IMG/VR virus record: IMGVR_UViG_3300028840_002185
Location: 1-64,000 of that record
From: a virus
Length of the DNA stretch: 64,000 nt
Reading direction: 5' to 3' (one strand)
Below, in pieces: positions 47,837 through 64,000 of the stretch; position 1 is the first letter of the stretch, and each line of letters starts with the position of its first letter. The notes beneath the pieces were generated by a model that did no database searches, had not been told where the DNA came from, and was given only the letters and a program-made list of their open reading frames with translations. Made by a program: the position numbers and the translations under genes.

Positions 47837-48503
47837 AGCACCAATTATACCACGCAAAGCATTCATTGAGTTGATTGAGGAAATGGATCTTGATGACTTT
47901 ATGACAATTAACTTTAAATGTCTAAAGTTTGTATCAGGTAATATCTCTTTGACTGAGCTATTTCATATTGCAATGACCGTTTCTTTATTCCGGCCTAATT
48001 GGATTATGGAATTTGGCACATTTAATGGCAGAACTACATTGAATATGGCAATCAACAATGAACATGCAAATATTATAACAATTGATCTTCCAAAAAACCA
48101 AGTCAATCGTACACGTTATCCATTAGAAAGCAAAGGAACCAATAAATTACAATTGGATGAAACTGGATACGTTGGATTGAAAGGAAAACTCTGGACAGGT
48201 CAATCAAGTGAAATTGTTCAACGCATTACTCAAGTATGGTCTGATACTGCAAAAGTAAAATTCAATCAATATAAAGATAAAATTGATTTTCTTTTTATTG
48301 ATGCATCCCACACTTACGAAAATTGCAAGAATGATTCATACAATGGTCATAAGGTAATTAAAAAACATGGAATCATTTACTGGCATGATTACGCAGGATG
48401 GCCTGGAGTCACAAAAGCATTGAATGAATATTATATCAATGAAGGTGAACCAGAAAAGATGTATTGGTTTGATAACACTTCTATTGTTGGGAGATTTTTT
48501 TAA
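47829..48503 (+). CDS. class I SAM-dependent methyltransferase (Methyltransf_24-like)
   Basis: IMEFGTFNGRTTLNMA (motif I region), FLFIDASHTYENCKNDS and GIIYWHDY. Confidence 0.7.
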   Translation: MTEAPIIPRKAFIELIEEMDLDDFMTINFKCLKFVSGNISLTELFHIAMTVSLFRPNWIMEFGTFNGRTTLNMAINNEHANIITIDLPKNQVNRTRYPLESKGTNKLQLDETGYVGLKGKLWTGQSSEIVQRITQVWSDTAKVKFNQYKDKIDFLFIDASHTYENCKNDSYNGHKVIKKHGIIYWHDYAGWPGVTKALNEYYINEGEPEKMYWFDNTSIVGRFF

Positions 48504-49492
48504 TGAGCAAAATAATTATTTCTTTTATGGATCAAAAGAGTAAACCAAAAAATCCAGATAATTTATTTGGAATTCTTGATACTGAAAATGAACATTTTGA
48601 ATGGATTAAATTGTCTCATTTAAACAATACCAACAATTTTGTACATGGTATGGGAATGACTTATAATCAAAATTATTTCTGTGCCGGAATAATCCCAATA
48701 AGAGAAAGACTAACTTCAAATATTCTCACCATAAACCTTGAAACTGGTGAGAAAAAAATAACATATTTACATTTTACAAAAGCAATTCATGGCATGACTA
48801 CTTTAGATAATAACAGATTATTAGTCAATGCTACTCAAAACGATTGTGTTGTGGAGTTGTGTCTTAACAATGGATGGGTTGTTACTGAAGATCTTTATCA
48901 TCATTTTTTATCCAAAGACTATTGGGAAGAAATAAGGAGAAGATATTGTGATTTAAGACAGGATCAAATTATCTATCGTGGGCCTACATATGTGGACGAT
49001 AATTATCACAACAATTCATTATTTAAATTTAAAAACCATATCTATGCAACCATGTTTAGAGGATTACCACATATGCAAGGCGTAGATGGTGGAGGAGCAA
49101 TGTTTAATTTAAAAAATGGAAATGTGATAATAGATAATTTATCTCAACCTCATACTGCTTTTGTTGATTCGATGAAAAATCCTTGTGTATGTAATTCCTC
49201 CCAATTCACTTTTATTGTCAAAGGTAAGTTTAAAATTGCCCTTGACGGATATACAAGGGGGATACATGAAGACAAACAAAAAAGCGGATATTGGATTGGT
49301 ATATCAGCATACCGCAAATACAATGCAAAATTATCAAAATGGATTGAAAAGTATCGTGGAGACCAACCTCTTAAAGGAGCAAGAATTCAATTTGTCAGTT
49401 ATGATGGACAGATCGGAAATACTATCGAGCTTTCGCAGTATGGTAAAGAAATATTTGATCTCTTGCCCTACAAAAACGGAAAATGGAATTAA
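48503..49492 (+). CDS. hypothetical protein (329 aa), possibly DUF4915/TIGR03032-like
   Basis: TAATG coupling to the methyltransferase. The family guess comes only from general resemblance (HG..., RG...-rich repeats). Confidence 0.55.
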   Translation: MSKIIISFMDQKSKPKNPDNLFGILDTENEHFEWIKLSHLNNTNNFVHGMGMTYNQNYFCAGIIPIRERLTSNILTINLETGEKKITYLHFTKAIHGMTTLDNNRLLVNATQNDCVVELCLNNGWVVTEDLYHHFLSKDYWEEIRRRYCDLRQDQIIYRGPTYVDDNYHNNSLFKFKNHIYATMFRGLPHMQGVDGGGAMFNLKNGNVIIDNLSQPHTAFVDSMKNPCVCNSSQFTFIVKGKFKIALDGYTRGIHEDKQKSGYWIGISAYRKYNAKLSKWIEKYRGDQPLKGARIQFVSYDGQIGNTIELSQYGKEIFDLLPYKNGKWN

Positions 49493-49509
49493 AAAAAGGA
49501 GAGTTAAAA

Positions 49510-49716
49510 ATGAAAAGACACGCAAAGGCAAAAATCCGTAATCTGATTAATCTGGAAGAAAAAGATGGTTTGACCAAAACCATTAAACGATTGCAAAAGA
49601 GATACAGTTATCTTTTAAGCAATCGTAACCGTATTGGTGGAGAATCAAGGCAGATGAAATATATTCAATACCATATGAAGAAATATCAGAGAATGTATCA
49701 GGAGGGAATTAGATGA
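49510..49716 (+). CDS. small basic protein (68 aa)
   Basis: ATG 49510 preceded by AAAGGAGAG. The track start at 49483 lies inside the previous gene. Confidence 0.55.
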   Translation: MKRHAKAKIRNLINLEEKDGLTKTIKRLQKRYSYLLSNRNRIGGESRQMKYIQYHMKKYQRMYQEGIR

Positions 49717-49931
49717 AGCGTGGAAATGTTAGAACATCTAAAAAGTACATAGTGGATTCTGAAGGAAACAAAACAATCAAATATGAGATCCAAGGAAAAC
49801 GCAATGGTATTTGGATGACTGTTCATGAAATGGATAAAACAACTAAAAAGAAAACTCCCATGATCTATGATACTATTGAAGAAGCTGAAAAACAGTTGTT
49901 AAAGATAGTTCAGCAAATAAAAGGGAGGTAA
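49713..49931 (+). CDS. hypothetical protein (72 aa)
   Basis: ATGA overlap upstream and CAGGAGGG RBS. Confidence 0.6.
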   Translation: MKRGNVRTSKKYIVDSEGNKTIKYEIQGKRNGIWMTVHEMDKTTKKKTPMIYDTIEEAEKQLLKIVQQIKGR

Positions 49932-49934
49932 TTA

Positions 49935-50156
49935 ATGGATCTCAAAGATGCTAAGTTTCTATTGAAAGAATTAAGAAGTGATGAATGTGCCTGTGGTAAA
50001 TATAAAAAATCAGGCTTTTCGTTTTGTTATAGTTGTTACTCCAGTTTGTCAAATGACTTACAAAAGAAGTTGTACAGGAGATTCGGAAATGGATATGAAG
50101 AAGCCTATGAAGAAGCATATGGATGGCTCAGAACTTGGGAATGGGATGATGAATGA
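49935..50156 (+). CDS. small Cys-rich protein (73 aa)
   Basis: Contains CAC....CYSCY. AGGGAGG RBS. Confidence 0.6.
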   Translation: MDLKDAKFLLKELRSDECACGKYKKSGFSFCYSCYSSLSNDLQKKLYRRFGNGYEEAYEEAYGWLRTWEWDDE

Positions 50157-50598
50157 CTTCTACAAAAACATGGTTTCATTGGAGATAGATACTAATAAGT
50201 TAATCAAAAAAGTTTGGGGATGGGAATACTGGATAATCAATTGTGAACAATATTGTGGTAAAATCTTAATTGTTAAAAAAGATCATATCTGCTCAACTCA
50301 TTATCATCAAAAGAAACACGAAACCTTTCATATATTATCTGGTCATCTCTACATGGAGTATGATATAGACTTTACTGAAAGAACCCATTGGAGAATGATT
50401 CCAGGGGATACTTTAATTGTTCCACCTTATACTAAACATGCTTTTGGTGGCATTACCGATGTTAAATTTCTTGAAATATCAACTCAACATTTTGAAAATG
50501 ATAGCTATCGTGATAATCAAAGTCGATATGTTGAAAATGGTTCTGAAGAATGGTATAATAATTCATCTAAATATGTAAATGGAGGTAATCAATGTTGA
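50146..50598 (+). CDS. cupin-fold sugar isomerase/epimerase-like protein
   Basis: WGWEYW..GKILIVKKDHICSTHYHQKKHETFHILSG ... GDTLIVPPYTKHAFG gives the two cupin motifs. I start it at ATG 50146, overlapping the previous stop. The track's 49978 start would overlap the whole previous gene. Confidence 0.6.
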   Translation: MMNDFYKNMVSLEIDTNKLIKKVWGWEYWIINCEQYCGKILIVKKDHICSTHYHQKKHETFHILSGHLYMEYDIDFTERTHWRMIPGDTLIVPPYTKHAFGGITDVKFLEISTQHFENDSYRDNQSRYVENGSEEWYNNSSKYVNGGNQC

Positions 50599-51110
50599 GA
50601 AGATCAAATAATTTAATTTGGTTTTTTATTGGTGTTTTAATAATTATTCTTCTTACTGTAATCTATGAAAAAGTTAGTGCGGAAGAATTAACTGCTCATT
50701 ATAATATTACTCTTTATACAATGAGTACAGATCAGCAGTTAACAGTTGCTTGGGATGATACCAATCCAGATATACAAGAGACTTTTGAATTTTATTTGTG
50801 GAATCATGGTGAACAAAGAAAATATGCAATTGGACAAACTCAGCAATTGCAAGTAACTACATTTATTCCACGTACAGGTCTTTATGCTTTCTTTGCAAGA
50901 GCCTGTGATAATGTTACTACTTTACCTACTTCATTAACTGAAAATGAAGTTACAGAGTACAAATGTTCTGAGTATGCTTCATCAGTAATGGAACAACCTG
51001 ATGGAACACCCTATGGTGTTGTAAAAGATCCGGCAACAGGACAATTAACTCCTGGCAAATGGATGATTTACGGACACGTTGGCGCACCTACTGGTGGTGG
51101 AGTCGAATAA
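50592..51110 (+). CDS. membrane-anchored protein with an FN3/Ig-like domain (172 aa)
   Basis: N-terminal TM segment LIWFFIGVLIIILLTVIY. TVAWDD...FEFYLW...YAFFARAC has a beta-sandwich-like pattern. Confidence 0.55.
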   Translation: MLRRSNNLIWFFIGVLIIILLTVIYEKVSAEELTAHYNITLYTMSTDQQLTVAWDDTNPDIQETFEFYLWNHGEQRKYAIGQTQQLQVTTFIPRTGLYAFFARACDNVTTLPTSLTENEVTEYKCSEYASSVMEQPDGTPYGVVKDPATGQLTPGKWMIYGHVGAPTGGGVE

Positions 51111-55842: not shown

Positions 55843-55866
55843 CATATTTCAATATTCAGTTGTTCA

Positions 55867-55902
55867 AGGCTCATTCCTATCCTGGGAATGGGCCTTTTTT
55901 AT
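55867..55902 (+). terminator. rho-independent terminator
   Basis: AGGCTCATTCC (55867-55877) pairs with GGAATGGGCCT (55885-55895, one G-U pair), followed by TTTTTTA. Confidence 0.75.
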
Positions 55903-55921
55903 TTAATTTACGTGTTTTAAT

Positions 55922-55934
55922 CGAGCGAAGCTCG
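55922..55934. other. CGAGCGAAGCTCG mini-hairpin (contains the GCGAAGC core)
   Basis: 5-bp stem with a GAA loop, read directly. d(GCGAAGC) is a known extra-stable DNA hairpin motif. Confidence 0.5.
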
Positions 55935-56272
55935 CACGATCCCCTCTAAAACGACCTCTTATAGCCCCTTTCACAAAATAGGCCGTTTAAATCACTTTAA
56001 AATGGTCTAATCCGACCTAACTCCCCTTATATGATGATAAGTTAGTCTATTTGGGCCTAAAATAGGCTATTTTGGACTAATAATACCTCTTTATCTTGAA
56101 ATTAGTTATATTTTAAGACCTCCCCAAGGGTGAATTTTCCAAATTATATGATATTACGACCCCCTTTTATACATTTCTAATATCAACATGAACGATAGGA
56201 CTTTGAATTTTAGAAAAATTTGTCGCAGGGGGGAGTTAGTATGGCTGAAGTCAATCAATCAAATGGTCGGTA

Positions 56273-56292
56273 ATTGATTGATTGATTGATTG
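56273..56292. repeat. (ATTG)5 tetranucleotide run, inverted relative to the CAATCAATCAA at 56252-56262
   Basis: Read directly: aATTGATTGATTGATTGATTGc. Confidence 0.9.
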
Positions 56293-56299
56293 CAATTGG

Positions 56300-56313
56300 C
56301 AATTGATCAATTG
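56300..56313. repeat. perfect 14-bp palindrome CAATTGATCAATTG
   Basis: Read directly. It equals its own reverse complement and contains two CAATTG sites around a GATC. Confidence 0.9.
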
Positions 56314-56363
56314 ATTATACTTGGATAATATCAATCAATCAATTGCCTTTATTGCCTTGATCC

Positions 56364-56702
56364 CTAAAGATCAATACTTGGATCAAGATCATAATTGCCT
56401 TGATCATATGCAATTGATGAAATATAGCTTGACATTATATCCAGTATACCTTGATCAATACCTTGATCATTAATTGGCAGGATCTTAATATTATGATCAT
56501 TAAATGATCTAATGTCATATGCAATAAATAAATAATAGCTTAACTGGTTTATGGTATCTTTTCCTATATCCTTTAAAAGATAAAAATCAATTATACCGTC
56601 AAACTGTATCAATGCTATATATTCAAATGATCCATTATTCATTAATTCATTGATAAAAGATAGTTGTTTTATATTATCGAAAGATATTTCATTATATATC
56701 AT
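56364..56702 (-). CDS. hypothetical protein (112 aa) downstream of the RHH gene
   Basis: ORF with AAAGAAAGGA RBS inside a duplicated leader. The C-terminal third is encoded by extremely GATC-dense DNA. Confidence 0.5.
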   Translation of the reverse strand: MIYNEISFDNIKQLSFINELMNNGSFEYIALIQFDGIIDFYLLKDIGKDTINQLSYYLFIAYDIRSFNDHNIKILPINDQGIDQGILDIMSSYISSIAYDQGNYDLDPSIDL

Positions 56703-56723
56703 TTGCTTTATGTCCTTTCTTTT

Positions 56724-56930
56724 TTATACCTTAATTTGATTTAAAATGGATCTTAATCTTAAAAGATCCTGCCTGTTAATAGATTGATCCTGTAATGATT
56801 TTAATCGATCAATATGATTATTTATTGCATTAGTGCAAATGGCCGAAACATTGATCCTATAATCTTTCTTGATCCTTTCTAATTTGCTATATGTATCTTG
56901 ATCTATTGATATGTTAATACGCTTGATCAT
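56724..56930 (-). CDS. ribbon-helix-helix (CopG/Arc-like) DNA-binding protein (68 aa)
   Basis: MIKRINISIDQDTYSKLERIKKDYRINVSAICTNAINNHI fits a beta-strand, helix, helix RHH layout. Confidence 0.6.
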   Translation of the reverse strand: MIKRINISIDQDTYSKLERIKKDYRINVSAICTNAINNHIDRLKSLQDQSINRQDLLRLRSILNQIKV

Positions 56931-56951
56931 TTGCCTTTATATCCTTTCTTT

Positions 56952-56980
56952 TTTATACCTTGATCATTGCCATTGATCAA
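56952..56980 (-). promoter_or_regulatory. candidate promoter for the RHH gene
   Basis: On the minus strand TTGATC (rc of 56975-56980), a 17-nt spacer, then TATAAA (rc of 56952-56957). The -10 lies inside the duplicated leader. Confidence 0.3.
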
Positions 56981-57006
56981 GAAAGATCATTGCATATATA
57001 AGCAAT

Positions 57007-57043
57007 AAGGCAGGATCTTAATCAATTTAAAAGATCCTGCCTT
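57007..57043 (-). terminator. perfect 13-bp hairpin after the 377-aa gene (terminator or operator)
   Basis: AAGGCAGGATCTT (57007-57019) pairs with AAGATCCTGCCTT (57031-57043) across an 11-nt loop. The U-tract is weak. Both arms are copies of the GGCAGGATCTT motif. Confidence 0.5.
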
Positions 57044-57061
57044 TCTATTGCCTATTGGATA

Positions 57062-58195
57062 TTAAATAAAATTAGTATTATTTAAATATTCCATAAATTC
57101 GTCAATATGACTTACTTTCACCTTATCAAGATCATTGCAATGATCTTGCAAGTGTTCAATTATCAATCCCTTGGTGGTGTCTGTCAATTTTTCTGCCTTA
57201 ATCAATGAAACAATTTCGGCTATAATAGGTTTATCGACTTGCAATAAATTTGCCCAGTATTCAAAATCCTTAACTATAGTCGGATTTTTAGATTGATCAA
57301 GTTTATTAGATCCTTTTATTAGATCAAGATCCTTTCCTGTTTTGATCAAGCTATCTATTGCCAATTTCATGCTATTGGGTGCAAAAAGCATTGAGTTATT
57401 ATCGGCCCGGTATGATTGCCAAATGGCCCTACAGGATTGATCTATTGTATCACCATTGCTAAAATCAATCCCATTGATAAAAAAGATGAATTCAGGCAAT
57501 TGATCGGCCTTTCCAGATTTTGCAAATTTATGATTAAAATAGCCTTTGAAGTGTTCATAGATCCCTTGATATGTATCTTGATCAATGGATTGATCAGTTA
57601 AAAAAGATCCTTTATTATTTGCCTTTCTGGTAATTACTTTTTGATTATTAATGGCAGGATCTTTTTTATCTGTCTTGGCTGTATTAATCGATTTTGCATG
57701 TAATGCATTAATGGCATTAAGGCAGGATTTTTGATCTTTTCCGATAATGGCAATCAATGAATTATTTTCATAAATGCATTTTGAAAGATCCTTAATATCG
57801 TTTATTAGATCCTGGATTAATACCGATTGATCATTTATGGTCTGTCTCAATGTTTCCACTTCAGCAAATTTATTCAAATTAAGATCAGATTTTTCATTAA
57901 ATGATTTTTCTTTAACCTTATCTTTTAATGATACCGCATTAATAGGTTTTGCATTGCCATTGCCAGAATTAATTGCTTGTAATTTTTCTTTTATTCCCAT
58001 TGTAATTTTATTCCTTTCTTTTAATTGATTTATTCCGAATTCGGTCGGATTGAATAATGTTACCATCTTAAAAGTATTATCATTTATTCGATAATATCTT
58101 TTAATTGAAAGGCAATCGATCCGATTATCAAAATAAGGATAATCGGATTTTAAAAGATCCTGCCTTTCATCATTTGCCGATAAATAATTTGCCAT
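57062..58195 (-). CDS. hypothetical protein (377 aa; 395 aa if started at 58249)
   Basis: I prefer ATG 58195 (MANYLSAN...). It is preceded by CACTTAAAAGGAAAGGA, a leader also found before the neighbouring 54-aa gene. The track start at 58249 has no RBS. Confidence 0.6.
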   Translation of the reverse strand: MANYLSANDERQDLLKSDYPYFDNRIDCLSIKRYYRINDNTFKMVTLFNPTEFGINQLKERNKITMGIKEKLQAINSGNGNAKPINAVSLKDKVKEKSFNEKSDLNLNKFAEVETLRQTINDQSVLIQDLINDIKDLSKCIYENNSLIAIIGKDQKSCLNAINALHAKSINTAKTDKKDPAINNQKVITRKANNKGSFLTDQSIDQDTYQGIYEHFKGYFNHKFAKSGKADQLPEFIFFINGIDFSNGDTIDQSCRAIWQSYRADNNSMLFAPNSMKLAIDSLIKTGKDLDLIKGSNKLDQSKNPTIVKDFEYWANLLQVDKPIIAEIVSLIKAEKLTDTTKGLIIEHLQDHCNDLDKVKVSHIDEFMEYLNNTNFI

Positions 58196-58252
58196 AAATT
58201 TTTCCTTTCCTTTTAAGTGGTTTTTGTTTGTGTTGCTTTCCATTGCCATTGC

Positions 58253-58417
58253 CTATTTATTCAAATTGTCAATTGCTTTCTGTATTTCAAAGGATTTTGC
58301 TTTTATGTGGCTTATTTCAACCGTCAAAAATCCCTTGCTATTGTAAAGGTAATTAATGCAAAAAATCATTGCAATGATCAAGATCCCATAAAAAATAATC
58401 CCTTTTAATTTTTCCAT
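58253..58417 (-). CDS. 54-aa membrane protein (MEKLKGIIFYGILIIAMIFCINYLYN...)
   Basis: Below the track cut-off. I translated it fully with no stops. GAAAGGA RBS. First gene after the leftward promoter. Confidence 0.55.
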   Translation of the reverse strand: MEKLKGIIFYGILIIAMIFCINYLYNSKGFLTVEISHIKAKSFEIQKAIDNLNK

Positions 58418-58470
58418 TTTTTAATCCTTTCTTTTAAGTGTTTTTGATGATTGCCTCGACTTTCACCTAT

Positions 58471-58499
58471 AATATATATCAAGCAATATATAATGTCAA
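58471..58499 (-). promoter_or_regulatory. sigma70-type promoter, leftward
   Basis: On the minus strand TTGACA (rc of 58494-58499), a 17-nt spacer, then TATATT (rc of 58471-58476). Confidence 0.6.
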
Positions 58500-58729
58500 G
58501 CAAATAATGCAATGATTGATTATTTTTTTAAAAAAAATATCAATCAATCAAATAATATAATAATATCAATCAATTGTATATTAAAAAAATATTAATTATT
58601 TTGTATCAATTGCCCTTATCTTATAATTGATTATTTTATATTGCAATTAATTTGATTAAATTTAATAATCAATTGAAATTTATTTTTTTAATATCCTGTA
58701 AATATTTGATATTATTAGTTTTTATCAGT

Positions 58730-58758
58730 TTGACATATACTATTTAATATGAGATAAT
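58730..58758 (+). promoter_or_regulatory. sigma70-type promoter with extended -10, rightward
   Basis: TTGACA 58730-58735, a 17-nt spacer ending in TGa, then GATAAT 58753-58758. Confidence 0.6.
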
Positions 58759-58779
58759 ACGTTATAACATATTGAATTA

Positions 58780-58803
58780 ATTGAATTAATCAATTAATTC
58801 AAT
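58780..58803. promoter_or_regulatory. operator-like inverted repeat just downstream of the rightward promoter
   Basis: ATTGAATTAAT (58780-58790), spacer CA, then ATTAATTCAAT (58793-58803): 11-bp arms that are exact reverse complements. Confidence 0.5.
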
Positions 58804-58993
58804 TCAATTGATTGACCAGACCGGAGAGGATCTGATCGATCAATTGATCAATCGCATCAAGCGTCCAGGTATAAGACGCCTTATATATAATCGATTGAAA
58901 CGAATCAATTACTACAATATTAATCACTCCAAAAATTTTGATTCATTTTCAATTAAAACCAAAACCAATCAATCAAATGAAAGGATCAGTACA

Positions 58994-59824
58994 ATGAAAA
59001 AGAATCACATCTTCAATCAATCAACTGGCAAATGTTTTTGTGGAATCGATCACACCAATCAATTGATAGCTTTCGATCATGAAGGCGATTGGTTTGATTC
59101 AAATGTCAATCCTATTGACAATTCCAATTATCAATCCGTATTGTGCATCAATTGCATGAAACAATTCGATGTTGATTTGATTGATAAATTCCAAATGGAT
59201 GCTTTCCTTATTGATTATGGCAATCGAATTCCAAATGGCAAAAGGGCAATGGCATTCTTTAAAAGGCAAGCCCAATTGAAACGTAAATCAATTGATCGAT
59301 CTGTACCTATTATAAAGGCCGATAAAAAACCTTCCGAATCAAAACCTACCAATCAATCAAAAGACAAGCCAATTAAATCCGATAAAGGCAAGGCAAGAGC
59401 CGAAAGAAAAAAGGCCAATCAATTGAAAAAGACCAATCAATCAAAAAAGGCCGATGACAAATGCAAGGTAATTGCCAAACCGACCAATCAATCAAAAGAC
59501 AAGCCAATTAAAACCGATGATAAATCAATCGATCAGAAAATTAATGATCGCAAGCCATTGATTGATTTGTCCAATGGCCCTGTTGTAATTGAAACTATCG
59601 ATCCAAATGACGATTGGACAATTGGTGATCCAATCAATGACGATACGATATTTGAATTGACAATTGGCAATGATTGGAAATTGATTAGACATGACAAAAA
59701 GCTCAATCAATGGAAGTTTGTCAATCGGCAAGTAGTCAAAGGCATTCCCAAATGGATCGATGATTCGGAATTCATTGATTACAATGAAGCAAGCCAATTG
59801 ATTATTGATGGCTATTGCGAATAA
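58994..59824 (+). CDS. hypothetical protein with an N-terminal Cys motif and a basic KPTNQSKDKPIK repeat region (276 aa)
   Basis: ATG 58994 preceded by the conserved AATCAAATGAAAGGA element. The track's TTG start at 58808 would make the 5' leader coding. Confidence 0.6.
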   Translation: MKKNHIFNQSTGKCFCGIDHTNQLIAFDHEGDWFDSNVNPIDNSNYQSVLCINCMKQFDVDLIDKFQMDAFLIDYGNRIPNGKRAMAFFKRQAQLKRKSIDRSVPIIKADKKPSESKPTNQSKDKPIKSDKGKARAERKKANQLKKTNQSKKADDKCKVIAKPTNQSKDKPIKTDDKSIDQKINDRKPLIDLSNGPVVIETIDPNDDWTIGDPINDDTIFELTIGNDWKLIRHDKKLNQWKFVNRQVVKGIPKWIDDSEFIDYNEASQLIIDGYCE

Positions 59825-59839
59825 TCAATCACACCCTAT

Positions 59840-59886
59840 TCCAGAACCCTATTCCAGAACTCAATTGATTGATCCTAATCCAGAAC
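59840..59886 (+). repeat. three TCCAGAAC copies in one intergenic spacer
   Basis: TCCAGAAC at 59840-59847, 59853-59860 and 59879-59886, in the contexts CTATTCCAGAACC, CTATTCCAGAACT and CTAATCCAGAACT. Confidence 0.85.
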
Positions 59887-59921
59887 TCCGATTGGGATCA
59901 ATCAGAAAGGATTAATCAATC

Positions 59922-60134
59922 ATGCCGAAATACCAATTACAAATGTTAATGAAAGACGAGCCAATCATTGATGCAATTGAAAGAAAATCATTTGAAATGG
60001 AAACAGGGATTTCATTCAATCAATACGATGCTTGGCTTGAAAAAAAGCGATCAATTGGCAAAAAGAAACTCAATCGAATTGATAGGCGTGAAAGACGATT
60101 GGCAATCAAAAAGAAAATGAAAGGAATCAATTAA
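59922..60134 (+). CDS. hypothetical basic protein (70 aa)
   Basis: ATCAATCAGAAAGGATTAATCAATC precedes the ATG. Confidence 0.6.
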   Translation: MPKYQLQMLMKDEPIIDAIERKSFEMETGISFNQYDAWLEKKRSIGKKKLNRIDRRERRLAIKKKMKGIN

Positions 60135-60136
60135 TC

Positions 60137-60424
60137 ATGGCAAAAGAATGGATCATTCATTTTGAAGTAATTGCAATCAATGTAATTCCACATTCATTCC
60201 CATTGGATATGCTTAGATTCGATCATTGCTATCCAAGCAATGATGATTCAATTAGTGAAATACTTGAATCATTGGATCAATTGGGATCTGCAATTGATTA
60301 TGAGCCAAAACCTATTAGATTGACTTGCCTATCACATGGTAATCGCAATTGGAAACCGAATGAAAGACGATGGCAATCATTTGGCTATCGAGTAATTAAA
60401 ATCGATCAACCCTATTCCGTTTAA
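60137..60424 (+). CDS. hypothetical protein (95 aa)
   Basis: AATGAAAGGAATCAATTAATC precedes the ATG. Confidence 0.6.
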   Translation: MAKEWIIHFEVIAINVIPHSFPLDMLRFDHCYPSNDDSISEILESLDQLGSAIDYEPKPIRLTCLSHGNRNWKPNERRWQSFGYRVIKIDQPYSV

Positions 60425-60452
60425 TCAATCAATGAAAGGAGATCAATCATTT

Positions 60453-60677
60453 ATGTATGAAATCACTATTCAAATGGTTATTCAATTAATCGCAAAAGTC
60501 AAAGGCATTACCCTTCCAATCAATGAATGCTTATTGCCATTTGGCTGCAAACTATGCAATCACAATCAAAAGTTTTATATCAAACATTATGCTTACGATC
60601 AATCGGATCTGAAACAATTGATTGATCGATTTCCTTTCCTGCACAATCCAAAATCTAATCCATTGCACAATATTTAA
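60453..60677 (+). CDS. hypothetical protein (74 aa)
   Basis: AATCAATCAATGAAAGGAGATCAATCATTT precedes ATG 60453. The track start at 60432 is the ATG inside the conserved element. Confidence 0.55.
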   Translation: MYEITIQMVIQLIAKVKGITLPINECLLPFGCKLCNHNQKFYIKHYAYDQSDLKQLIDRFPFLHNPKSNPLHNI

Positions 60678-60695
60678 TCAATTAACAATTTAATT

Positions 60696-60736
60696 GGAAT
60701 CCCTATTGCAGAGCAGTAATTGCAATTAGGGATTCC
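60696..60736 (+). terminator. strong hairpin (15-bp stem with one bulge) after the 60453 gene
   Basis: GGAATCCCTATTGCA (60696-60710) pairs with TGCAATTAGGGATTCC (60721-60736). There is no clear U-tract. Confidence 0.45.
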
Positions 60737-60759
60737 TGCATTCAAAGGATCTGATCCCA

Positions 60760-60855
60760 ATGGATAAATTCCCAATTGTCATTGGATTTTTGCTATCGGT
60801 TTTACTATTGGCTATACTTTACCCTTACCTATTAATCCTGATTGCTTCTCATTGA
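60760..60855 (+). CDS. 31-aa hydrophobic peptide (MDKFPIVIGFLLSVLLLAILYPYLLILIASH)
   Basis: Below the track cut-off. AAAGGA lies 12 nt upstream. Single TM segment. Confidence 0.35.
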   Translation: MDKFPIVIGFLLSVLLLAILYPYLLILIASH

Positions 60856-60896
60856 AATAAGGCAATCACTAAATCAATTGAAAGGAGATTAAATCA

Positions 60897-61100
60897 ATGG
60901 CTATCGACATTAAAGAATTGCACAATCAATTGGACATGGTAAAAACCAGATCAATGTCAATTGCTTCAATGATTCAAGATTTTGAAGTACATCGATTGAA
61001 TGATTCGGATGAAGTGACCGAATTATTGAATGATTGCGAAGGCGATCTGAATGCTTTGCAGATCCATTTAGAATCAGCATGGGAAGCAATGGGTGATTAA
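60897..61100 (+). CDS. hypothetical acidic protein (67 aa)
   Basis: AATCAATTGAAAGGAGATTAAATCA precedes the ATG. Confidence 0.6.
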   Translation: MAIDIKELHNQLDMVKTRSMSIASMIQDFEVHRLNDSDEVTELLNDCEGDLNALQIHLESAWEAMGD

Positions 61101-61191
61101 TTAAAACCGGAAATCGATTGCCTTATGGTAATTAGGCTAATCAATTGCTACAAGGCAATCGAATCCAAAATCAATGAAAGGAATTAAAATT

Positions 61192-61623
61192 ATGACTGAA
61201 GCAATTACTTTAAGGACGCATGGATTGACAATTGACGATTTAATGAATGCTTGGCAATTGGATCGAAAGCAGGTGCAATTGATCCGCAAGGTGATATATG
61301 ATCCAGATCTCGATCTCAATCAATTCAAATCGGTACGCAATCGAATTAAAGAATGCTATAATCCACCTGATCGAATCAATTGCCAATTGACAGCAATCAA
61401 CGAATTGATCGATGGATTCGGAGTTGAATCAATTGAAGTATCTTCAGATCTATTTCAGGATCGCTATTATTGGAATTCAATTGGATTGTATGTCAATCAA
61501 GGTGATACATACCTATTGACTGTTGTTTACAATACAGTTGATCGATTGTTTGAATTAACGTCATGGGGCGATTATTACGAATCAATGGAAAATCGATTGC
61601 AATTGGATGCTACAGATTATTAA
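61192..61623 (+). CDS. hypothetical protein (143 aa)
   Basis: AATCAATGAAAGGAATTAAAATT precedes ATG 61192. The track start at 61174 is inside the conserved element. Confidence 0.6.
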   Translation: MTEAITLRTHGLTIDDLMNAWQLDRKQVQLIRKVIYDPDLDLNQFKSVRNRIKECYNPPDRINCQLTAINELIDGFGVESIEVSSDLFQDRYYWNSIGLYVNQGDTYLLTVVYNTVDRLFELTSWGDYYESMENRLQLDATDY

Positions 61624-61653
61624 AAAAAAGTGTAAAAAATTGTAATCGGCCTA

Positions 61654-61682
61654 TTGACAGCGTGAAATACCTATGTTATATT
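61654..61682 (+). promoter_or_regulatory. sigma70-type promoter with extended -10
   Basis: TTGACA 61654-61659, a 17-nt spacer ending in TGt, then TATATT 61677-61682. Confidence 0.55.
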
Positions 61683-61767
61683 GGCATATCATTATCAACA
61701 AAGGCATGGCAGCAGTTTTTTCAATCAATCACAAACTTAATCTAAATCAAATGAAAGGAGTCAATCA

Positions 61768-62640
61768 ATGCAATTAAACTATCACGTCATCAAACAAATT
61801 ATTTCCGATCTGGACAAATCAATTGATCTTCACCGTTTGATCAAAGTACTTTATCCTAATTGCACTTGTAACAATGCTTCCGAATCAATTAAAAAATGTT
61901 TTTTGTGCAAATGCAAAGAAGCAATTGACGATCTCGATTGCTTGAAATCCCACCTTGAGCCAATCTCCAAAAACACTATCAATCATCTTCAATTGATTGA
62001 AGCTGAAGCATTCCGATTTGCTTTGAATGAACATTTATCATTCAATGAATCAGTTAGATGCTATCCTATTTACAATGATCCTAATGCAGACCATAATTCA
62101 GATCCGAAAGATGCTGATTCATTTGCAATTGAATGCACTACTTCTCGATATGCAATGGATGGCAATGGTTATCATGTTGGATATGAGAATGTAACCTATC
62201 AATGGAAAGCAATGAGAAAAAGCGATCTCAATTTAAGAGGTATTCCTTTATTACTTTCCAATTGGGTGATTGATCCTACCAATTATGAGATAATCAAAAA
62301 AGATTTACCTGATAATGAATTGCCTGATCCAGATCATTCACATGATGACGATTGCGAATTCAAAGGCAAAGGATTTGATGATTGCGATTGCGCTGAATAC
62401 TTTGAGGGCTATTGGCAACCAGATGATGACTTCTTTTATCAGGAAATGGAATCAATCATTGACCAATTGAAATATCCTGAAGCAGAATTTGATTCCGATA
62501 AACGTGAATGGCAATTGGGGGAAGTATCATTCAATCTCTTATTTTGTATCAATTGCCCTTATCTTATAGATGAATATCAAAATGATCCTGATTATGCCGA
62601 TGATTGCAATTGTAATTATGGTGAGCCTTTTATTGAATAG
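61768..62640 (+). CDS. hypothetical acidic Cys-rich protein (290 aa)
   Basis: AATCAAATGAAAGGAGTCAATCA precedes the ATG. Confidence 0.65.
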   Translation: MQLNYHVIKQIISDLDKSIDLHRLIKVLYPNCTCNNASESIKKCFLCKCKEAIDDLDCLKSHLEPISKNTINHLQLIEAEAFRFALNEHLSFNESVRCYPIYNDPNADHNSDPKDADSFAIECTTSRYAMDGNGYHVGYENVTYQWKAMRKSDLNLRGIPLLLSNWVIDPTNYEIIKKDLPDNELPDPDHSHDDDCEFKGKGFDDCDCAEYFEGYWQPDDDFFYQEMESIIDQLKYPEAEFDSDKREWQLGEVSFNLLFCINCPYLIDEYQNDPDYADDCNCNYGEPFIE

Positions 62641-62644
62641 GTAA

Positions 62645-62665
62645 TCCAGAACCTTAATTCAGAAC
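62645..62665 (+). repeat. TCCAGAAC plus the TTCAGAAC variant
   Basis: TCCAGAAC at 62645-62652 and TTCAGAAC at 62658-62665, directly after the stop at 62640. Confidence 0.8.
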
Positions 62666-62698
62666 TCAACTAACAATCAATTGAAAGGAGAATCAATT

Positions 62699-63178
62699 AT
62701 GTTTATTCAGCAGCAATGTGGTTGTATCGGTCTATTAATTGAAAATGAATTTGGCTCAAAAGAATTCTACAAGATTATTGATTGTCGTAGAGAAGACAAT
62801 TCAATTGGTTTCTATGAAGATCATGAATCAATGGAATATCGAAGGTATCGGCAATTAAACAATCATGAATTACATGCTATTGTTCGATTGATAGGTCAAA
62901 CAATGGCAGATGCCGATAGGTATGAGGAAGTTCAATTGGCATTGGGAATCACCGGATCGCAATCACAGCAAAAAAGACGTGAAGCAAGAATCAATTGGGA
63001 TCGAGTATGTCAAGAGCAATTGACATTCACTTCATTTAATGAAATTGATACTATCAAAGCATTCCCATTAGATGATCGCAATCAATCGGAAATCGATAAG
63101 GAAACTGATCGATTGCAATTACTCAAAGAACGTGAAAACAAAAAACTCGATCATTGGCCCGATCCATTTAGCAGTTAA
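62699..63178 (+). CDS. hypothetical protein (159 aa)
   Basis: AATCAATTGAAAGGAGAATCAATT precedes ATG 62699. The track's TTG start at 62681 is inside the conserved element. Confidence 0.6.
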   Translation: MFIQQQCGCIGLLIENEFGSKEFYKIIDCRREDNSIGFYEDHESMEYRRYRQLNNHELHAIVRLIGQTMADADRYEEVQLALGITGSQSQQKRREARINWDRVCQEQLTFTSFNEIDTIKAFPLDDRNQSEIDKETDRLQLLKERENKKLDHWPDPFSS

Positions 63179-63186
63179 TCCAGAAC
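63179..63186 (+). repeat. TCCAGAAC copy (TAATCCAGAACT overlapping the stop codon)
   Basis: Read directly. Confidence 0.8.
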
Positions 63187-63218
63187 TCACAATCAATTAA
63201 ATGAAAGGAGATCAATTA

Positions 63219-64000
63219 ATGAAAAAATCTATTCTAATCGGCATTCAAGGCAATGACAAGGTTATTCTGGAAGTAAAATTGACAAAAAAGGACATTACCC
63301 AATCAAGCGCAATTACAACACTATTAACTCCAGTTTATAGCGATCATTTCCTGCAATTGTCAATCTCAGGATCAATTGGCAATCATTCATTCGGTCAAAT
63401 CTATGATTCAATCCTGCCTTCAATGATGGATGAATTGTTTATTGATGAAGATGTTCTGATTCAATTGATTACTTATTGGAAAGCGTGTCATTTGAATGAC
63501 ATGAATGCCGGATCTGAATTACAAATGGAATATGTTGATTTCTATCGCAATCAATTCCTAAAAACTGAAAGTTATATTGGTTACGATAAAATTTGTGCAA
63601 TGCTCAATCAGCACCATTTATTGATTGACAAAGAAACCAATCCCAATTTAAATGTTGGTTACAAGTATGGTACTTTATGGCTTGTTCGATTGATTCCCGA
63701 TGAAGTAATCAAATTCATTGATTCTCTGCAATCAACTCCACAGGATATGATTCGATCAAATATCCTTGACTATCTTCTGGAACACAATTACAAATGGACA
63801 ATCACACCTTCCGATCACAATCCCTACATGACCAATCAATCAACTGATATGGATCATTGGAAAGCTGTTTTCAAAAATTCCGATGGCAATCAATTCACTA
63901 CCTATTTCAGTACAGGATTAGGTCATCGATTGTATCCTACCAATAAGCAATCGTCATTGAATCTCATTGCAATGAATTGGGCAAAAAAGACAATTAGAAT
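63219..64000 (+). CDS. hypothetical protein, N-terminal 260 aa only (runs off the right edge)
   Basis: AATCAATTAAATGAAAGGAGATCAATTA precedes ATG 63219. I translated it to nt 64000 without a stop (MKKSILIGIQGNDKVILEVKL...). Not in the track because it is truncated. Confidence 0.65.
   Translation, partial: MKKSILIGIQGNDKVILEVKLTKKDITQSSAITTLLTPVYSDHFLQLSISGSIGNHSFGQIYDSILPSMMDELFIDEDVLIQLITYWKACHLNDMNAGSELQMEYVDFYRNQFLKTESYIGYDKICAMLNQHHLLIDKETNPNLNVGYKYGTLWLVRLIPDEVIKFIDSLQSTPQDMIRSNILDYLLEHNYKWTITPSDHNPYMTNQSTDMDHWKAVFKNSDGNQFTTYFSTGLGHRLYPTNKQSSLNLIAMNWAKKTIR

What the first reader, a model, noticed from the sequence alone, without database searches (positions are those of the whole stretch)
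56230..64000. Abrupt oligonucleotide-signature switch: an ~8-kb arm saturated with CAATTG, CAAT/ATTG runs and GATC
The sequence texture changes right of ~56.23 kb. By hand I counted ~47 CAATTG sites in 58801-64000 and ~10 more in 56261-58800. Base composition alone predicts about 2-3 in 7.8 kb. I counted ~47 GATC in 56341-58440 (about 1 per 45 bp), of which 24 lie in 56341-57060; composition predicts about 1 per 300 bp. (CAAT)2-3, (ATTG)2-5 and TTGATCAA words are everywhere. They occur in all three reading frames, on both coding orientations and in intergenic DNA. This looks like a DNA-level property that then forces N/Q/S/I/D-rich proteins (NQS, IDQ, SID). Phages usually avoid short palindromes, so strong enrichment of two of them, CAATTG and GATC, confined to one arm is unusual. 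Possible meanings (inference): a binding array for a phage or host DNA-binding protein, dense methylation targets controlling early expression or injection, a decoy for restriction or SeqA/MutH-type proteins, or a module acquired from a different lineage.
Basis: seen in the sequence. Interest (0 to 1): 0.8.

Follow-up and report, generated by a model that had tools for sequence, protein, structure and literature searches.

The report
CAATTG-saturated early domain of a phage
An uncultured 108-kb phage that has purged most short palindromes from its genome instead packs one palindrome, CAATTG, and its half-words into almost every position the proteins allow across a 26-kb early and replication gene block, and its relatives do the same, so a still unknown factor probably reads or writes this word on the DNA.

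Summary

- **Not explained by composition or coding.** Composition, amino-acid usage, codon usage, and matched di- or trinucleotide counts all fail to explain the CAATTG/CAAT excess.
- **Part of a larger domain.** The 8-kb arm is the visible tip of a domain of about 26 kb (58.8 to about 84.6 kb). This is the rightward, sigma-70-promoted unit of early and replication genes. About 70% of peptide contexts that can encode CAATTG do so there, against about 25% elsewhere.
- **Apparent decay.** Word density falls with distance because later proteins allow fewer permissive peptides, not because the pressure weakens.
- **Conserved in relatives.** Relatives down to 44% protein identity keep the same two-domain pattern, while individual sites turn over.
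- **GATC is separate.** Its codon-context preference is genome-wide. There is also a local cluster in a minus-strand accessory module that relatives lack.
- **Extreme palindrome avoidance.** The genome has 0 CTAG, 0 CGCG and 0 GGWCC, and 39 of 64 hexamer palindromes are absent.

The most likely reading is a maintained array of recognition words for a factor that binds or modifies double-stranded DNA. The function is unproven. The rivals are biased mutation or repair, an RNA-level or host-mimicry effect, and restriction-driven word choice.

The parts
55866..55896 (+). Terminator-like hairpin followed by a T run. It closes the upstream plus-strand block (43-55.8 kb), which lacks the signature.
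   Evidence: 14-pair stem, then TTTTATTT. Word density in that block is at baseline.
55897..56249 (.). Non-coding spacer without the signature, rich in short C runs. The texture switch happens at its right end.
   Evidence: Sequence read. Profiles.
56250..56350 (.). Densest non-coding cluster: (CAAT)2-3, (ATTG)4 and four CAATTG in about 50 bp. It has an 18-nt inverted repeat (56269-56286 / 56330-56347) and lies downstream of the minus-strand operon.
   Evidence: (I19, 94% complementary). (palindromes at 56300-56315).
56341..57060 (.). GATC cluster of 24 sites in 720 bp, many as CCTTGATCA. It lies inside the 112-aa and RHH genes.
   Evidence: count. (GATC O/E 1.88, z 8.4 in this module). Not conserved in relatives.
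56364..56702 (-). 112-aa ORF with no family match, downstream partner of the RHH gene.
56724..56930 (-). 68-aa ribbon-helix-helix protein, CcdA/Arc-like.
   Evidence: PF07362, 1.7e-5. (Arc-like repressor PHROGs).
57009..57041 (.). Perfect 11-bp-stem hairpin GGCAGGATCTT...AAGATCCTGCC between the 395-aa and RHH genes. The AAGATCCTGCC word recurs at 56758-56777 and 58149-58168.
   Evidence: (family D7).
57062..58249 (-). 395-aa ORF with no family match. Its L044 counterpart is a 423-aa minus-strand gene at the same position, and that locus has about 1 GATC per kb.
57128..57147 (.). 20-bp perfect palindrome AAGATCATTGCAATGATCTT. Its 14-bp core recurs at 58365-58378. It is operator-like.
   Evidence: (I11).
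58253..58417 (-). 54-aa ORF, first gene of the leftward operon.
58418..58807 (.). Divergent control region at 25% G+C. It has near-consensus sigma-70 promoters (minus 58499-58471, plus 58730-58758) and TATCAATCAAT repeats. It is the left edge of the CAATTG-saturated domain.
   Evidence: (D2). (step in saturation).
58808..64000 (+). First 5.2 kb of the CAATTG/CAAT-saturated rightward unit. The plateau continues outside the window to about 84.6 kb. Here CAATTG is 9-12 per kb, CAAT+ATTG is 54-72 per kb, and 77% of permissive peptide contexts are encoded as CAATTG.
58997..59824 (+). First gene of the unit, 275 aa. It has a Cys/His N-terminal domain, a lysine-rich low-complexity linker and a Trp-rich C-terminal domain. 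The family is restricted to this phage clade. It is a candidate DNA-binding protein, by inference only.
   Evidence: 32 homologues, all unnamed. (invariant H5, C16, C51, C54, KGKAR). (AlphaFold2 mean pLDDT 58, too low for a fold search).
61654..61682 (+). Internal near-consensus sigma-70 promoter (TTGACA, 17 nt, TGnTATATT) in the 61624-61767 gap.

Best explanation
CAATTG and its half-words (CAAT/ATTG, best written CAATYG/CRATTG) form a maintained high-density array of recognition words on double-stranded DNA. The array marks one genomic domain: the rightward unit of early and replication genes. That unit starts at consensus host-type promoters at 58.5-58.8 kb and runs for about 26 kb.

**Shown.** The pressure acts on DNA words in any frame and is close to strand-symmetric. 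It saturates about 70% of the available positions. Its strength is flat across genes of very different function and constraint. It drops to about 25% outside the unit. It has been held across a whole clade of phages while individual sites turn over.

**Inferred.** A palindromic hexamer whose half-sites also count is what a dimeric sequence-specific protein reads. That protein could be a DNA-binding protein that coats or organises this domain. It could equally be a DNA-modifying enzyme whose marks are wanted at high density there. Possible roles are temporal control of the early unit, or shielding the part of the genome that must work before phage defences are expressed. Which protein this is, and whether it binds or modifies, was not determined.

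The GATC excess is a separate layer. It combines a genome-wide context preference with a local cluster in a non-conserved RHH-containing module.
For: **Word specificity.**
- CAATTG is 3.0-fold above synonymous permutation (z 16).
- One-off variants are enriched only if they keep a CAAT half-site. CAATCG is 2.6-fold, CAATTA 1.5-fold and CAATTC 1.45-fold, whereas AAATTG/CAATTT, which changes the outer C or G, is at 0.64.
- The enrichment survives matching of all dinucleotide and trinucleotide counts.

**Saturation of permissive peptide contexts.**

| Context | Arm | Comparison |
|---|---|---|
| Q-L encoded as CAATTG | 67% | 29% expected from codon usage |
| [SPTA]-I-[VADEG] | 71% | 20% in the rest of the genome |
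| X-N-[CW] | 82% | 33% in the rest of the genome |

**Domain behaviour.**
- Saturation is 0.77, 0.71 and 0.68 in 58.8-64, 64-71 and 71-84.6 kb.
- It is 0.21-0.28 in the late genes, the 43-55.8 kb block and the minus-strand module.
- CAAT O/E is 1.94 in all three sub-regions of the unit, against 1.18-1.55 outside.

**Promoters.** Consensus sigma-70 promoters sit at the left edge.

**Clade conservation with site turnover.**
- Early and replication loci of relatives show saturation of 0.55-0.72. Fourteen late loci give 0.23 (164 of 699).
- Only 20-27% of CAATTG sites share a column between orthologues at about 65% nucleotide identity. The figure for all hexamers is 15-17%.

**Strand symmetry.** CAAT and ATTG are both enriched on the sense strand.

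**Genome context.** CAATTG is the commonest surviving 2-G+C hexamer palindrome in a genome that lacks 39 of 64. Its abundance is therefore tolerated or wanted, not accidental.
Against: - No reader or writer was identified. No DNA methyltransferase Pfam domain was found in about 104 of 108 kb, although small unannotated ORFs in 12.2-42 kb were not scanned. The host is unknown. The model of the first early protein was too poor to search with.
- There is no helical or other long-range spacing between the words. No motif longer than about 8 bp stands clearly above a Markov-3 background: TCAATTGA has 22 sites against about 12 expected.
- A flat synonymous bias across a whole unit, with amino-acid effects that scale with protein freedom, is also what a regional mutation or repair bias would give.
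- The same bias exists outside the domain at roughly half strength. Word z-scores inside and outside correlate at r = 0.64.
- There is a sense-strand excess of CAAT over ATTG (1.97 against 1.49). A purely double-strand reader does not predict this.
Confidence: 0.4

Rival explanations
1. A regional mutation, repair or gene-conversion bias. A context-dependent process creates CAAT/CAATYG words everywhere in the genome. It acts about twice as strongly on the rightward early and replication unit. This could be because the unit is transcribed, replicated or recombined differently or for longer. The words themselves have no function. This is the type of model proposed for cyanobacterial HIP1 (my recollection of Elhai 2015, not re-read here).
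For: - The synonymous-level bias is flat across 26 kb regardless of gene function: CAAT O/E is 1.94 three times.
- Amino-acid-level effects fall with protein constraint. Permissive contexts go from 33.9 to 19.6 to 14.3 per 1000 codons.
- The same direction of bias exists outside the domain (r = 0.64).
- Sites turn over while density is kept.
Against: - Saturation of about 70% of permissive contexts needs a very strong bias.
- The product expected from a very-short-patch-type T:G to C:G correction, TAATTG/CAATTA, is enriched at 1.47-fold rather than depleted.
- I know of no process that would produce a sharp step at a promoter region within one DNA molecule and hold it across a clade.
- The minus-strand module next to the promoters lacks the bias in this phage, and its word density is also low in L044.
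Confidence: 0.25
2. Transcript-level selection or host mimicry. The words are favoured in the mRNA of genes that must be expressed by unmodified host machinery. CAA-rich unstructured leaders and coding sequence would be one example, and matching the host's own oligonucleotide usage would be another. Because CAAUUG is its own complement, an RNA-level reader is not excluded by strand symmetry.
For: - The sense strand prefers CAAT over ATTG (1.97 against 1.49), and CAA has z = 23.
- (CAAT)2 is three-fold commoner in the sense orientation.
- Every gene start carries the leader AATCAAT..GAAAGGAG..ATCAAT.
- Sub-words of the -10 hexamer (ATAA, TAAT, GATA, AATA) are avoided on the sense strand inside the domain only.
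Against: - ATTG, the antisense half-word, is itself strongly enriched on the sense strand (z 15).
- RNA folding z-scores are the same inside and outside the domain, -0.3 to -0.8.
- The leftward operon, also driven by a consensus promoter, lacks the bias.
- Non-coding DNA outside transcripts (56250-56350) is the densest spot.
- The host genome was not available, so mimicry is untested.
Confidence: 0.15
3. A by-product of restriction pressure on the first-exposed DNA. The region that enters or acts first must avoid the widest set of restriction sites. It therefore drifts into a small vocabulary of words already proven safe, and CAATTG is the commonest of these.
For: - Restriction-type avoidance is extreme genome-wide: 39 of 64 hexamer palindromes are absent (summed expectation 489), with CTAG 0/304, CGCG 0/85, GGWCC 0/56 and CCSGG 1/27.
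- The arm over-uses exactly the surviving palindromes.
- 6-mer and 7-mer diversity is 6-14% lower in the arm.
- In relative L054, GATC is nearly absent from the first 4 kb of the early operon, 2 against 10 expected.
Against: - The forbidden set is equally absent from the rest of the genome, so the arm is not avoiding more of it.
- The extra depletion of words such as GTAC and AGCT is not specific to palindromes. The median arm/rest ratio is 0.64 for palindromes and 0.76 for non-palindromes.
- All 5-mers are still present.
- Matching every di- and trinucleotide count does not reproduce the CAAT/CAATTG excess.
- The codon-level pressure is a plateau, not a gradient from an end.
Confidence: 0.12
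4. A recently acquired foreign module that still carries the oligonucleotide signature of another lineage.
For: The switch at 56.2 kb is abrupt, and most arm proteins have no family match.
Against: - The arm has none of the genome's forbidden words (0 CTAG, 0 CGCG, none of the absent palindromes).
- The same gene order and the same two-domain signature occur in relatives from at least eight other samples at 44-71% protein identity.
Confidence: 0.03

Closest known systems
HIP1 (GCGATCGC), the highly iterated palindrome of cyanobacterial chromosomes
   Same: It is a short palindrome far above any composition- or codon-based expectation. It is found in coding DNA in all frames and in non-coding DNA. 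Its density is kept in evolution and its function is unresolved.
   Different: - HIP1 is a G+C-rich octamer spread over whole chromosomes and is linked to orphan GATC/CGATCG methyltransferases (my recollection of Elhai 2015; the papers listed were not read).
- Here the word is an A+T-rich hexamer in a phage.
- Here it is concentrated three-fold in one 26-kb unit.
- Here the non-palindromic half-words are enriched too.
- No cognate methyltransferase was found.
Oriented or self-marking chromosomal words (Chi, KOPS, DNA uptake sequences)
   Same: These are short words kept at high density by selection on number rather than position. They are read by a DNA-processing machine.
   Different: Those words are 5-12 nt, non-palindromic, and act in one orientation or as longer cores. 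Here the core is a palindrome, orientation bias is small, and no core longer than about 8 bp stands out.
GATC clusters read by Dam/SeqA (E. coli oriC) or controlling phage P1 pac cleavage
   Same: There are 24 GATC in 720 bp, many as TGATCA. This density is like that of oriC or P1 pac as I remember them.
   Different: The cluster lies inside protein-coding genes of an accessory RHH module far from the terminase genes. The equivalent region in relative L044 has about 1 GATC per kb.
First-step-transfer region of phage T5 and the leading regions of conjugative plasmids
   Same: Each is a genome segment that acts first in the new cell, is full of small genes of unknown function, and is shaped by restriction pressure.
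   Different: The known feature there is absence of particular sites and the presence of anti-defence genes. It is not saturation with one palindrome. Whether this domain enters first could not be tested.
Dispersed or cooperative binding arrays of phage DNA-binding proteins (SPO1 TF1, phi29 p6, RHH omega heptad arrays)
   Same: These involve many weak or short sites in direct and inverted orientation that cover a region of a phage genome or operator. They are tied to early-gene control.
   Different: Those arrays span tens to hundreds of base pairs, or depend on base modification or bendability with a defined period. Here the words fill 26 kb of coding DNA with no periodicity.

Membership tests
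Highly iterated palindrome (HIP1-type) | Palindromic word far above expectation after correcting for codon and oligonucleotide usage | tested here: met
   CAATTG is 112 against 36.8 (z 16) under synonymous permutation and 112 against 67 +/- 6 with trinucleotide counts matched.
Highly iterated palindrome (HIP1-type) | Present in all reading frames and in non-coding DNA | tested here: met
   Frames 28/37/9. Non-coding density 9.2 per kb against 6.9 per kb coding.
Highly iterated palindrome (HIP1-type) | Spread over the whole replicon | tested here: not met
   3.85 per kb in 58.8-94.6 kb against 0.93 per kb elsewhere. Saturation is about 0.7 against about 0.25.
Highly iterated palindrome (HIP1-type) | Cognate DNA methyltransferase in the same genome | tested here: inconclusive
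   No DNA methyltransferase domain in about 104 of 108 kb. Only generic class-I SAM methyltransferases were found. A 3.7-kb gap, small unannotated ORFs in 12.2-42 kb, and the host genome were not examined.
Chi/KOPS-type oriented words | Non-palindromic word with strong orientation bias relative to a DNA end or replication direction | tested here: not met
   The core is a palindrome. CAAT against ATTG is only 1.3-1.45 to 1 and follows gene orientation.
DNA uptake sequences | Conserved core of 9-12 nt repeated hundreds of times | tested here: not met
   The commonest 10-mers reach only 16 copies and 12-mers 7 or fewer.
Dam/SeqA-type GATC cluster (origin or pac control) | GATC at about 1 per 20-30 bp over a few hundred bp | tested here: met
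   24 in 720 bp at 56341-57060.
Dam/SeqA-type GATC cluster (origin or pac control) | Conserved cis-element at the same place in related genomes | tested here: not met
   L044 has about 1 per kb in the equivalent module. L054 has 2 against 10 expected at the start of its early region.
Dam/SeqA-type GATC cluster (origin or pac control) | Methylation of the sites and a reader protein | not testable with these tools
   No methylation data. No Dam or SeqA homologue was seen in the annotated parts.
Operator or iteron array of a repressor (RHH/HTH) | Defined motif of at least 8-10 bp with fixed spacing, concentrated in control regions | tested here: inconclusive
   Palindromes of 14-20 bp occur at 57128-57147 and 58365-58378, and there are dense clusters at 56250-56350 and 58500-58860. 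The bulk of the words are in coding DNA without spacing rules.
Restriction-site-free leading segment (T5 first-step-transfer type) | Fewer restriction sites than the rest of the genome | tested here: not met
   The forbidden palindromes are absent everywhere. The extra depletion in the arm is not specific to palindromes.
Restriction-site-free leading segment (T5 first-step-transfer type) | Located at the DNA end that enters first | not testable with these tools
   Contigs assemble as circles with a 123-bp overlap. No read data were available for terminus mapping.
Horizontally acquired island | Signature foreign to the host genome, including its avoided words, and absent from relatives | tested here: not met

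The most novel reading that the evidence does not exclude
A phage clade uses an iterated palindrome code (CAATTG and half-sites) to mark one 26-kb temporal domain of its chromosome for a dedicated reader or writer. One candidate is a clade-specific early protein, such as the Cys/His plus lysine-rich product of the first gene, that coats the domain. Another is a sequence-directed DNA modification, possibly made with the phage's sugar-kinase, glycosyltransferase, methyltransferase and thymidylate-synthase-like genes. Either would shield or time the genes that must act before the phage's other defences exist. That would be domain-level chromatin-like marking written into the coding sequence of a virus.
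Probability: 0.25. Interest if true: 0.85.

Novelty: new variant of a known kind. Interest (0 to 1): 0.66.

Why it matters
Over-represented short words such as Chi, uptake sequences and HIP1 are among the few cases where selection on DNA itself visibly overrides coding. Several of them led to new machinery once the reader protein was found.

Here the effect is unusually clean. One hexamer is driven to about 70% of its possible positions. It has a sharp domain edge at a promoter region. The virus otherwise eliminates palindromes, and the pattern has been kept across a clade from several marine and saline sediment metagenomes.

If a reader or writer exists, it would define a new way for phages to label part of their genome for protection or timing. 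If the cause is a repair bias, it would be a rare example of a regional, word-specific mutational process.

The companion finding is of interest for restriction-avoidance studies in its own right. CTAG, CGCG, GGWCC and 39 hexamer palindromes are totally absent from 96-104 kb of sequence.

Tried and rejected
**Explanations tested and rejected.**
- **Amino-acid or codon usage:** rejected by synonymous permutation.
- **TpA or homopolymer avoidance, or any di- or trinucleotide bias:** explains only about 25% and about 64% of the CAAT excess, and 19% and 41% of the CAATTG excess.
- **Helical phasing or curvature:** there is no periodicity beyond word chaining at +2, +3 and +4.
- **General excess of dyad symmetry:** palindrome counts equal or fall below Markov-3 expectation.
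- **IHF consensus WATCAANNNNTTR:** 13 observed against 11 under Markov-3.
- **Minimal-vocabulary model:** 5-mer diversity is unchanged and 6- and 7-mer diversity is only 6-14% lower.
- **RNA secondary structure:** z-scores are the same inside and outside the domain.
- **Very-short-patch-type repair signature:** TAATTG is not depleted.
- **Spurious -10 avoidance as the driver:** modest, z -5.2 against -3.1.

**Searches that found nothing useful.**
- Near-identical phages in INPHARED: none. Capsid and terminase have only hits below 30% identity.
- IMG/VR searches with two arm proteins and with the leader pattern: nothing relevant.
- Host identification: the only genome hit is a probably mis-binned Thermoplasmata MAG contig.
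- Rfam over the window: no match.
- PADLOC on ten arm proteins: no match.
- AlphaFold2 of the first early protein: mean pLDDT 58, so no fold search was run.
- Literature searches on CAATTG, iterated palindromes in phages, and palindrome avoidance in early genes: no report of anything similar in the held library.

Full report
**What the window is**

- The window is part of a phage genome of about 107.8 kb. It was assembled independently as 107,941-bp (JGI 3300017963) and 107,905-bp (ENA ERZ27256798) contigs. Different break points and a 123-bp end overlap mean the assembly closes as a circle.
- I recovered about 104 kb of it in four steps (L001, L004, L055, L056).
- Late genes (portal, protease, capsid, tail) lie on the minus strand from 42 kb leftwards.
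- A plus-strand block at 43-55.8 kb carries a DnaD-like protein, a PfkB kinase, a methyltransferase and a cupin. It ends in a terminator-like hairpin at 55866-55896.
- A small minus-strand module follows at 56.3-58.4 kb.
- A long plus-strand unit starts at 58.8 kb. It runs through about 30 small ORFs of unknown function into a split DNA polymerase A, an AAA protein, a RecA-like protein and a PDDEXK nuclease. SbcCD-like proteins, a weak thymidylate-synthase-like hit and ribonucleotide reductase come after that.
- Near-consensus sigma-70 promoters diverge from 58.47-58.76 kb, and another sits at 61.65 kb. I therefore treat the two operons as early, host-polymerase units. That is an inference.
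- There is no close cultured relative, and the host is unknown.

CAATTG is 47 plus 10, which is 57 in 7.8 kb against 52 in the other 56.2 kb. GATC is 47 in 56341-58440, with 24 of these in 720 bp.
- Expected CAATTG in the arm is 2.7 from composition, 7.6 under Markov-1, 21 under Markov-2 and 35 under Markov-3.
- The words occur in all frames, in genes of both orientations, and at least as densely in non-coding DNA.
- Permuting synonymous codons within the arm genes gives 28.5 +/- 4.2 CAATTG against 74 observed. It gives 190 CAAT against 345 observed.
- A harder control fixed the protein sequences and codon usage and also forced all 16 dinucleotide or all 64 trinucleotide counts to their observed values. 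This covered the coding sequence of 58.8-84.6 kb.

| Word | Observed | Dinucleotides matched | Trinucleotides matched |
|---|---|---|---|
| CAAT | 495 | 309 | 405 +/- 7 |
| CAATTG | 112 | 51 | 67 +/- 6 |

**What the unit of enrichment is**

- The enriched vocabulary includes CAAT, ATTG, TCAA, GCAA, GATC, CATT and AATC. It consists of A+T-rich words without TpA steps or homopolymer runs. CAAT stands far above the others, with z about 22-24.
- Among hexamers, CAATTG is 3.0-fold above synonymous expectation.
  - One-off variants that keep a CAAT half-site are also raised: CAATCG 2.6-fold, CAATGG 1.65, CAATTA 1.47 and CAATTC 1.45.
  - AAATTG/CAATTT, which changes the outer C or G, is depleted at 0.64.
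- The best description is therefore CAATYG/CRATTG, with half-sites that count on their own.
- No spacing rule exists beyond direct chaining into CAATTG, CAATCAAT and GATCAAT.
- There is no general excess of palindromes.
- No longer motif dominates.

**The arm is the tip of a domain**

- Raw density falls gradually from 72 CAAT+ATTG per kb at 59 kb to about 33 at 70-77 kb and about 20 at 84-86 kb.
- The pressure itself does not fall. I counted the peptide contexts that can encode CAATTG (Q-L, [SPTA]-I-[VADEG], X-N-[CW]) and asked how many actually do.

| Region | Fraction encoded as CAATTG |
|---|---|
| 58.8-64 kb | 0.77 |
| 64-71 kb | 0.71 |
| 71-84.6 kb (polymerase, RecA and so on) | 0.68 |
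| 85-94.5 kb | 0.33 and 0.53 (small numbers) |
| Late genes | 0.26 |
| 43-51 kb | 0.28 |
| Small ORFs, 51-55.8 kb | 0.21 |
| Minus-strand module | 0.25 |

- CAAT observed over expected is 1.94 in each of the three sub-regions of the unit, against 1.18-1.55 elsewhere.
- What declines with distance is the number of permissive peptides. They go from 33.9 to 19.6 to 14.3 per 1000 codons, against a baseline of about 11. This shows how far each protein has been reshaped.
- The feature is therefore a plateau of about 26 kb with a sharp left edge at the divergent promoters and a soft right edge near 85 kb.

**Conservation**

- The terminase has relatives in 36 viral contigs at 53-96% identity.
- Syntenic early regions were recovered from other samples:
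  - L044 (marker protein 65% identical);
  - L045/L050 (61%);
  - L054 (44%);
  - L047-L051.
- All show CAAT+ATTG at 40-70 per kb and CAATTG at 4-13 per kb at the start of the plus-strand operon. Density declines towards the polymerase genes.
- Saturation is 0.55-0.72 in their early and replication loci, against 0.23 (164 of 699) in fourteen late loci.
- Only 20-27% of CAATTG sites sit in the same alignment column between orthologues at about 65% nucleotide identity. That is little above the 15-17% seen for all hexamers. Density is kept while sites turn over.
- A differently organised phage that shares one early protein family (L053) has no such signature.

**GATC is a separate matter**

- The codon-context preference for GATC is about 1.36-fold in every part of the genome. 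It is higher, at 1.88-fold, only in the minus-strand module.
- TCGA has no context preference. Its excess comes from codon choice.
- Relatives do not share the GATC or TCGA enrichment.

| Locus | Region | GATC |
|---|---|---|
| L044 | minus-strand module | about 1 per kb |
| L054 | first 4 kb of early region | 2 observed, 10 expected |
| L044 | later part | 140 observed, 53 expected |
| L045 | later part | 107 observed, 43.5 expected |

- The local cluster at 56341-57060 lies in an RHH (CcdA/Arc-like) gene and its 112-aa partner.
- That module also holds several structured elements:
  - repeated CCTTGATCA words;
  - a perfect hairpin at 57009-57041;
  - a 20-bp palindrome at 57128-57147 whose core recurs at 58365-58378.
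- These look like operators or terminators of an accessory module, not part of the clade-wide feature.

**Genome-wide context**

- In 95.6 kb, 39 of 64 hexamer palindromes are absent. Their summed expectation is 489 from composition and 394 under Markov-1.
- In 104 kb, CTAG and CGCG are still absent.
- In the 95.6 kb, CTAG is 0 against 304 expected, CGCG 0 against 85 and GGWCC 0 against 56. In the 86-kb composite, CCSGG is 1 against 27.
- In the 82 kb examined at that step, 23 of 24 palindromes with four G+C are absent, against 9% of non-palindromic hexamers of the same composition.
- Relatives share this avoidance.
- This is restriction-type avoidance of unusual breadth. CAATTG is the commonest survivor, 2.7-fold over composition even outside the domain.
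- The arm over-uses exactly the survivors: CAATTG, ATCGAT, TGATCA, TTGCAA and GAATTC.
- The arm is not simply avoiding more words. All 5-mers are present, 6- and 7-mer diversity is only 6-14% lower, and the extra depletion is not specific to palindromes.

**Interpretation**

- *Shown.* A DNA-word pressure that ignores frame and is close to strand-symmetric. It is near saturation, flat over one promoter-bounded unit, weaker but present elsewhere, and old.
- *Preferred reading (confidence about 0.4).* The words are recognition sites for a dimeric factor on double-stranded DNA. The factor either binds at high density across this domain or modifies it. Number of sites matters, not position.
- *Roles that would fit the domain limits.* Temporal control of the early and replication unit, or protection of the genes that must work first in a lineage under heavy restriction pressure. 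These are inferences.
- *What keeps this tentative.* No reader or writer was found. No DNA methyltransferase domain appears in the 104 kb examined. The clade-specific first early protein (Cys/His domain, KGKAR-type basic linker) is only a candidate.
- *Main rival (about 0.25).* A regional, context-dependent mutation, repair or conversion bias predicts the same flat synonymous signal. Against it stand the strength of the bias, the sharp step within one molecule, and the lack of TAATTG depletion.
- *Second rival (about 0.15).* An RNA-level or host-mimicry component is suggested by the sense-strand excess of CAAT and the CAAT-rich ribosome-site leaders. It does not explain ATTG enrichment, the dense non-coding cluster at 56250-56350, or the unbiased leftward operon. 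RNA folding is unremarkable.
- *Third rival (about 0.12).* A pure restriction by-product.
- *Fourth rival (about 0.03).* Recent foreign origin is contradicted.

**Comparison with known systems**

- The nearest known phenomenon is the cyanobacterial highly iterated palindrome HIP1.
- The shared features are strength, frame independence and unknown function.
- The differences are that this word is A+T-rich, sits in a virus, is limited to a domain, comes with enriched half-sites, and has no cognate methyltransferase in view.
- It is not an oriented word like Chi, not an uptake sequence, and not an origin- or pac-type GATC cluster conserved in relatives. It could not be shown to be a T5-type leading segment.
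- My searches of the held literature found no report of a phage with a domain-restricted saturating palindrome. That does not prove none exists.

**Verdict**

- The finding is real, larger than reported and statistically very strong.
- It is conserved across a clade and currently has no assigned mechanism.
- I rate it a new variant of a known kind of feature (iterated genomic words), with interest 0.66.

Noticed in passing
window 1-64000 and all recovered parts of the genome (about 104 kb): Total absence of CTAG (expected about 300), CGCG (about 85) and GGWCC (about 56), with CCSGG at 1 against 27 expected. Also 39 of 64 hexamer palindromes are absent, including every one with four or more G+C except a single TCCGGA. 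Relatives share this. It points to an exceptionally broad restriction pressure or to a phage nuclease that cuts such sites.
   Followed up: yes
window 46436-51110 and 1336-2229; L056 13379-14110: A set of sugar and small-molecule enzymes sits in this phage. They are a PfkB kinase, a Methyltransf_24 protein, a cupin or lyxose-isomerase-like protein, a family-9 glycosyltransferase, two further class-I methyltransferases and a weak thymidylate-synthase-like protein. The DNA polymerase exonuclease part is fused to a UDG-like domain. Together these could mean that the DNA or the virion is chemically modified.
   Followed up: partly
window 59840-59887, 62645-62653, 63179-63187: The motif TCCAGAACY occurs five times (0.9 expected). 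All five are on the plus strand and lie just after stop codons inside the early operon. This may be a processing, termination or regulatory signal.
   Followed up: partly
window 58596-58634 and 62539-62577: A 39-nt repeat (TTATTTTGTATCAATTGCCCTTATCTTATA...) is 92% identical between two copies. One copy is in the divergent control region and the other is inside the 290-aa ORF. It looks promoter-like.
   Followed up: no
window 58950-63220 (upstream of each plus-strand gene): A conserved translation leader of the form AATCAAT(N0-5)GAAAGGAG(N0-3)ATCAAT(N)ATG precedes most early genes. It combines a strong Shine-Dalgarno sequence with CAAT repeats.
   Followed up: partly
window 59342-59383 and 59477-59518: A 42-nt internal direct repeat, 95% identical, lies in the first early gene. 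It encodes the lysine-rich PTNQSKDKPIK segment.
   Followed up: no
L054 951-5000: In a distant relative, GATC is nearly absent from the first 4 kb of the early operon (2 against 10 expected) but at expectation further on. This is the opposite of the window phage and suggests host-specific selection on GATC that is strongest at the start of the early unit.
   Followed up: partly
L053 15547-15969: A differently organised phage that shares one early protein family carries a weak Ocr-like (anti-restriction DNA mimic) hit in its early region. It lacks both the CAATTG signature and the CTAG avoidance.
   Followed up: no
window 56364-56930: The RHH (CcdA-like) gene followed by a 112-aa ORF resembles a toxin-antitoxin or repressor cassette. 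I saw no counterpart among the called genes of relative L044, but this was not checked by sequence comparison.
   Followed up: partly
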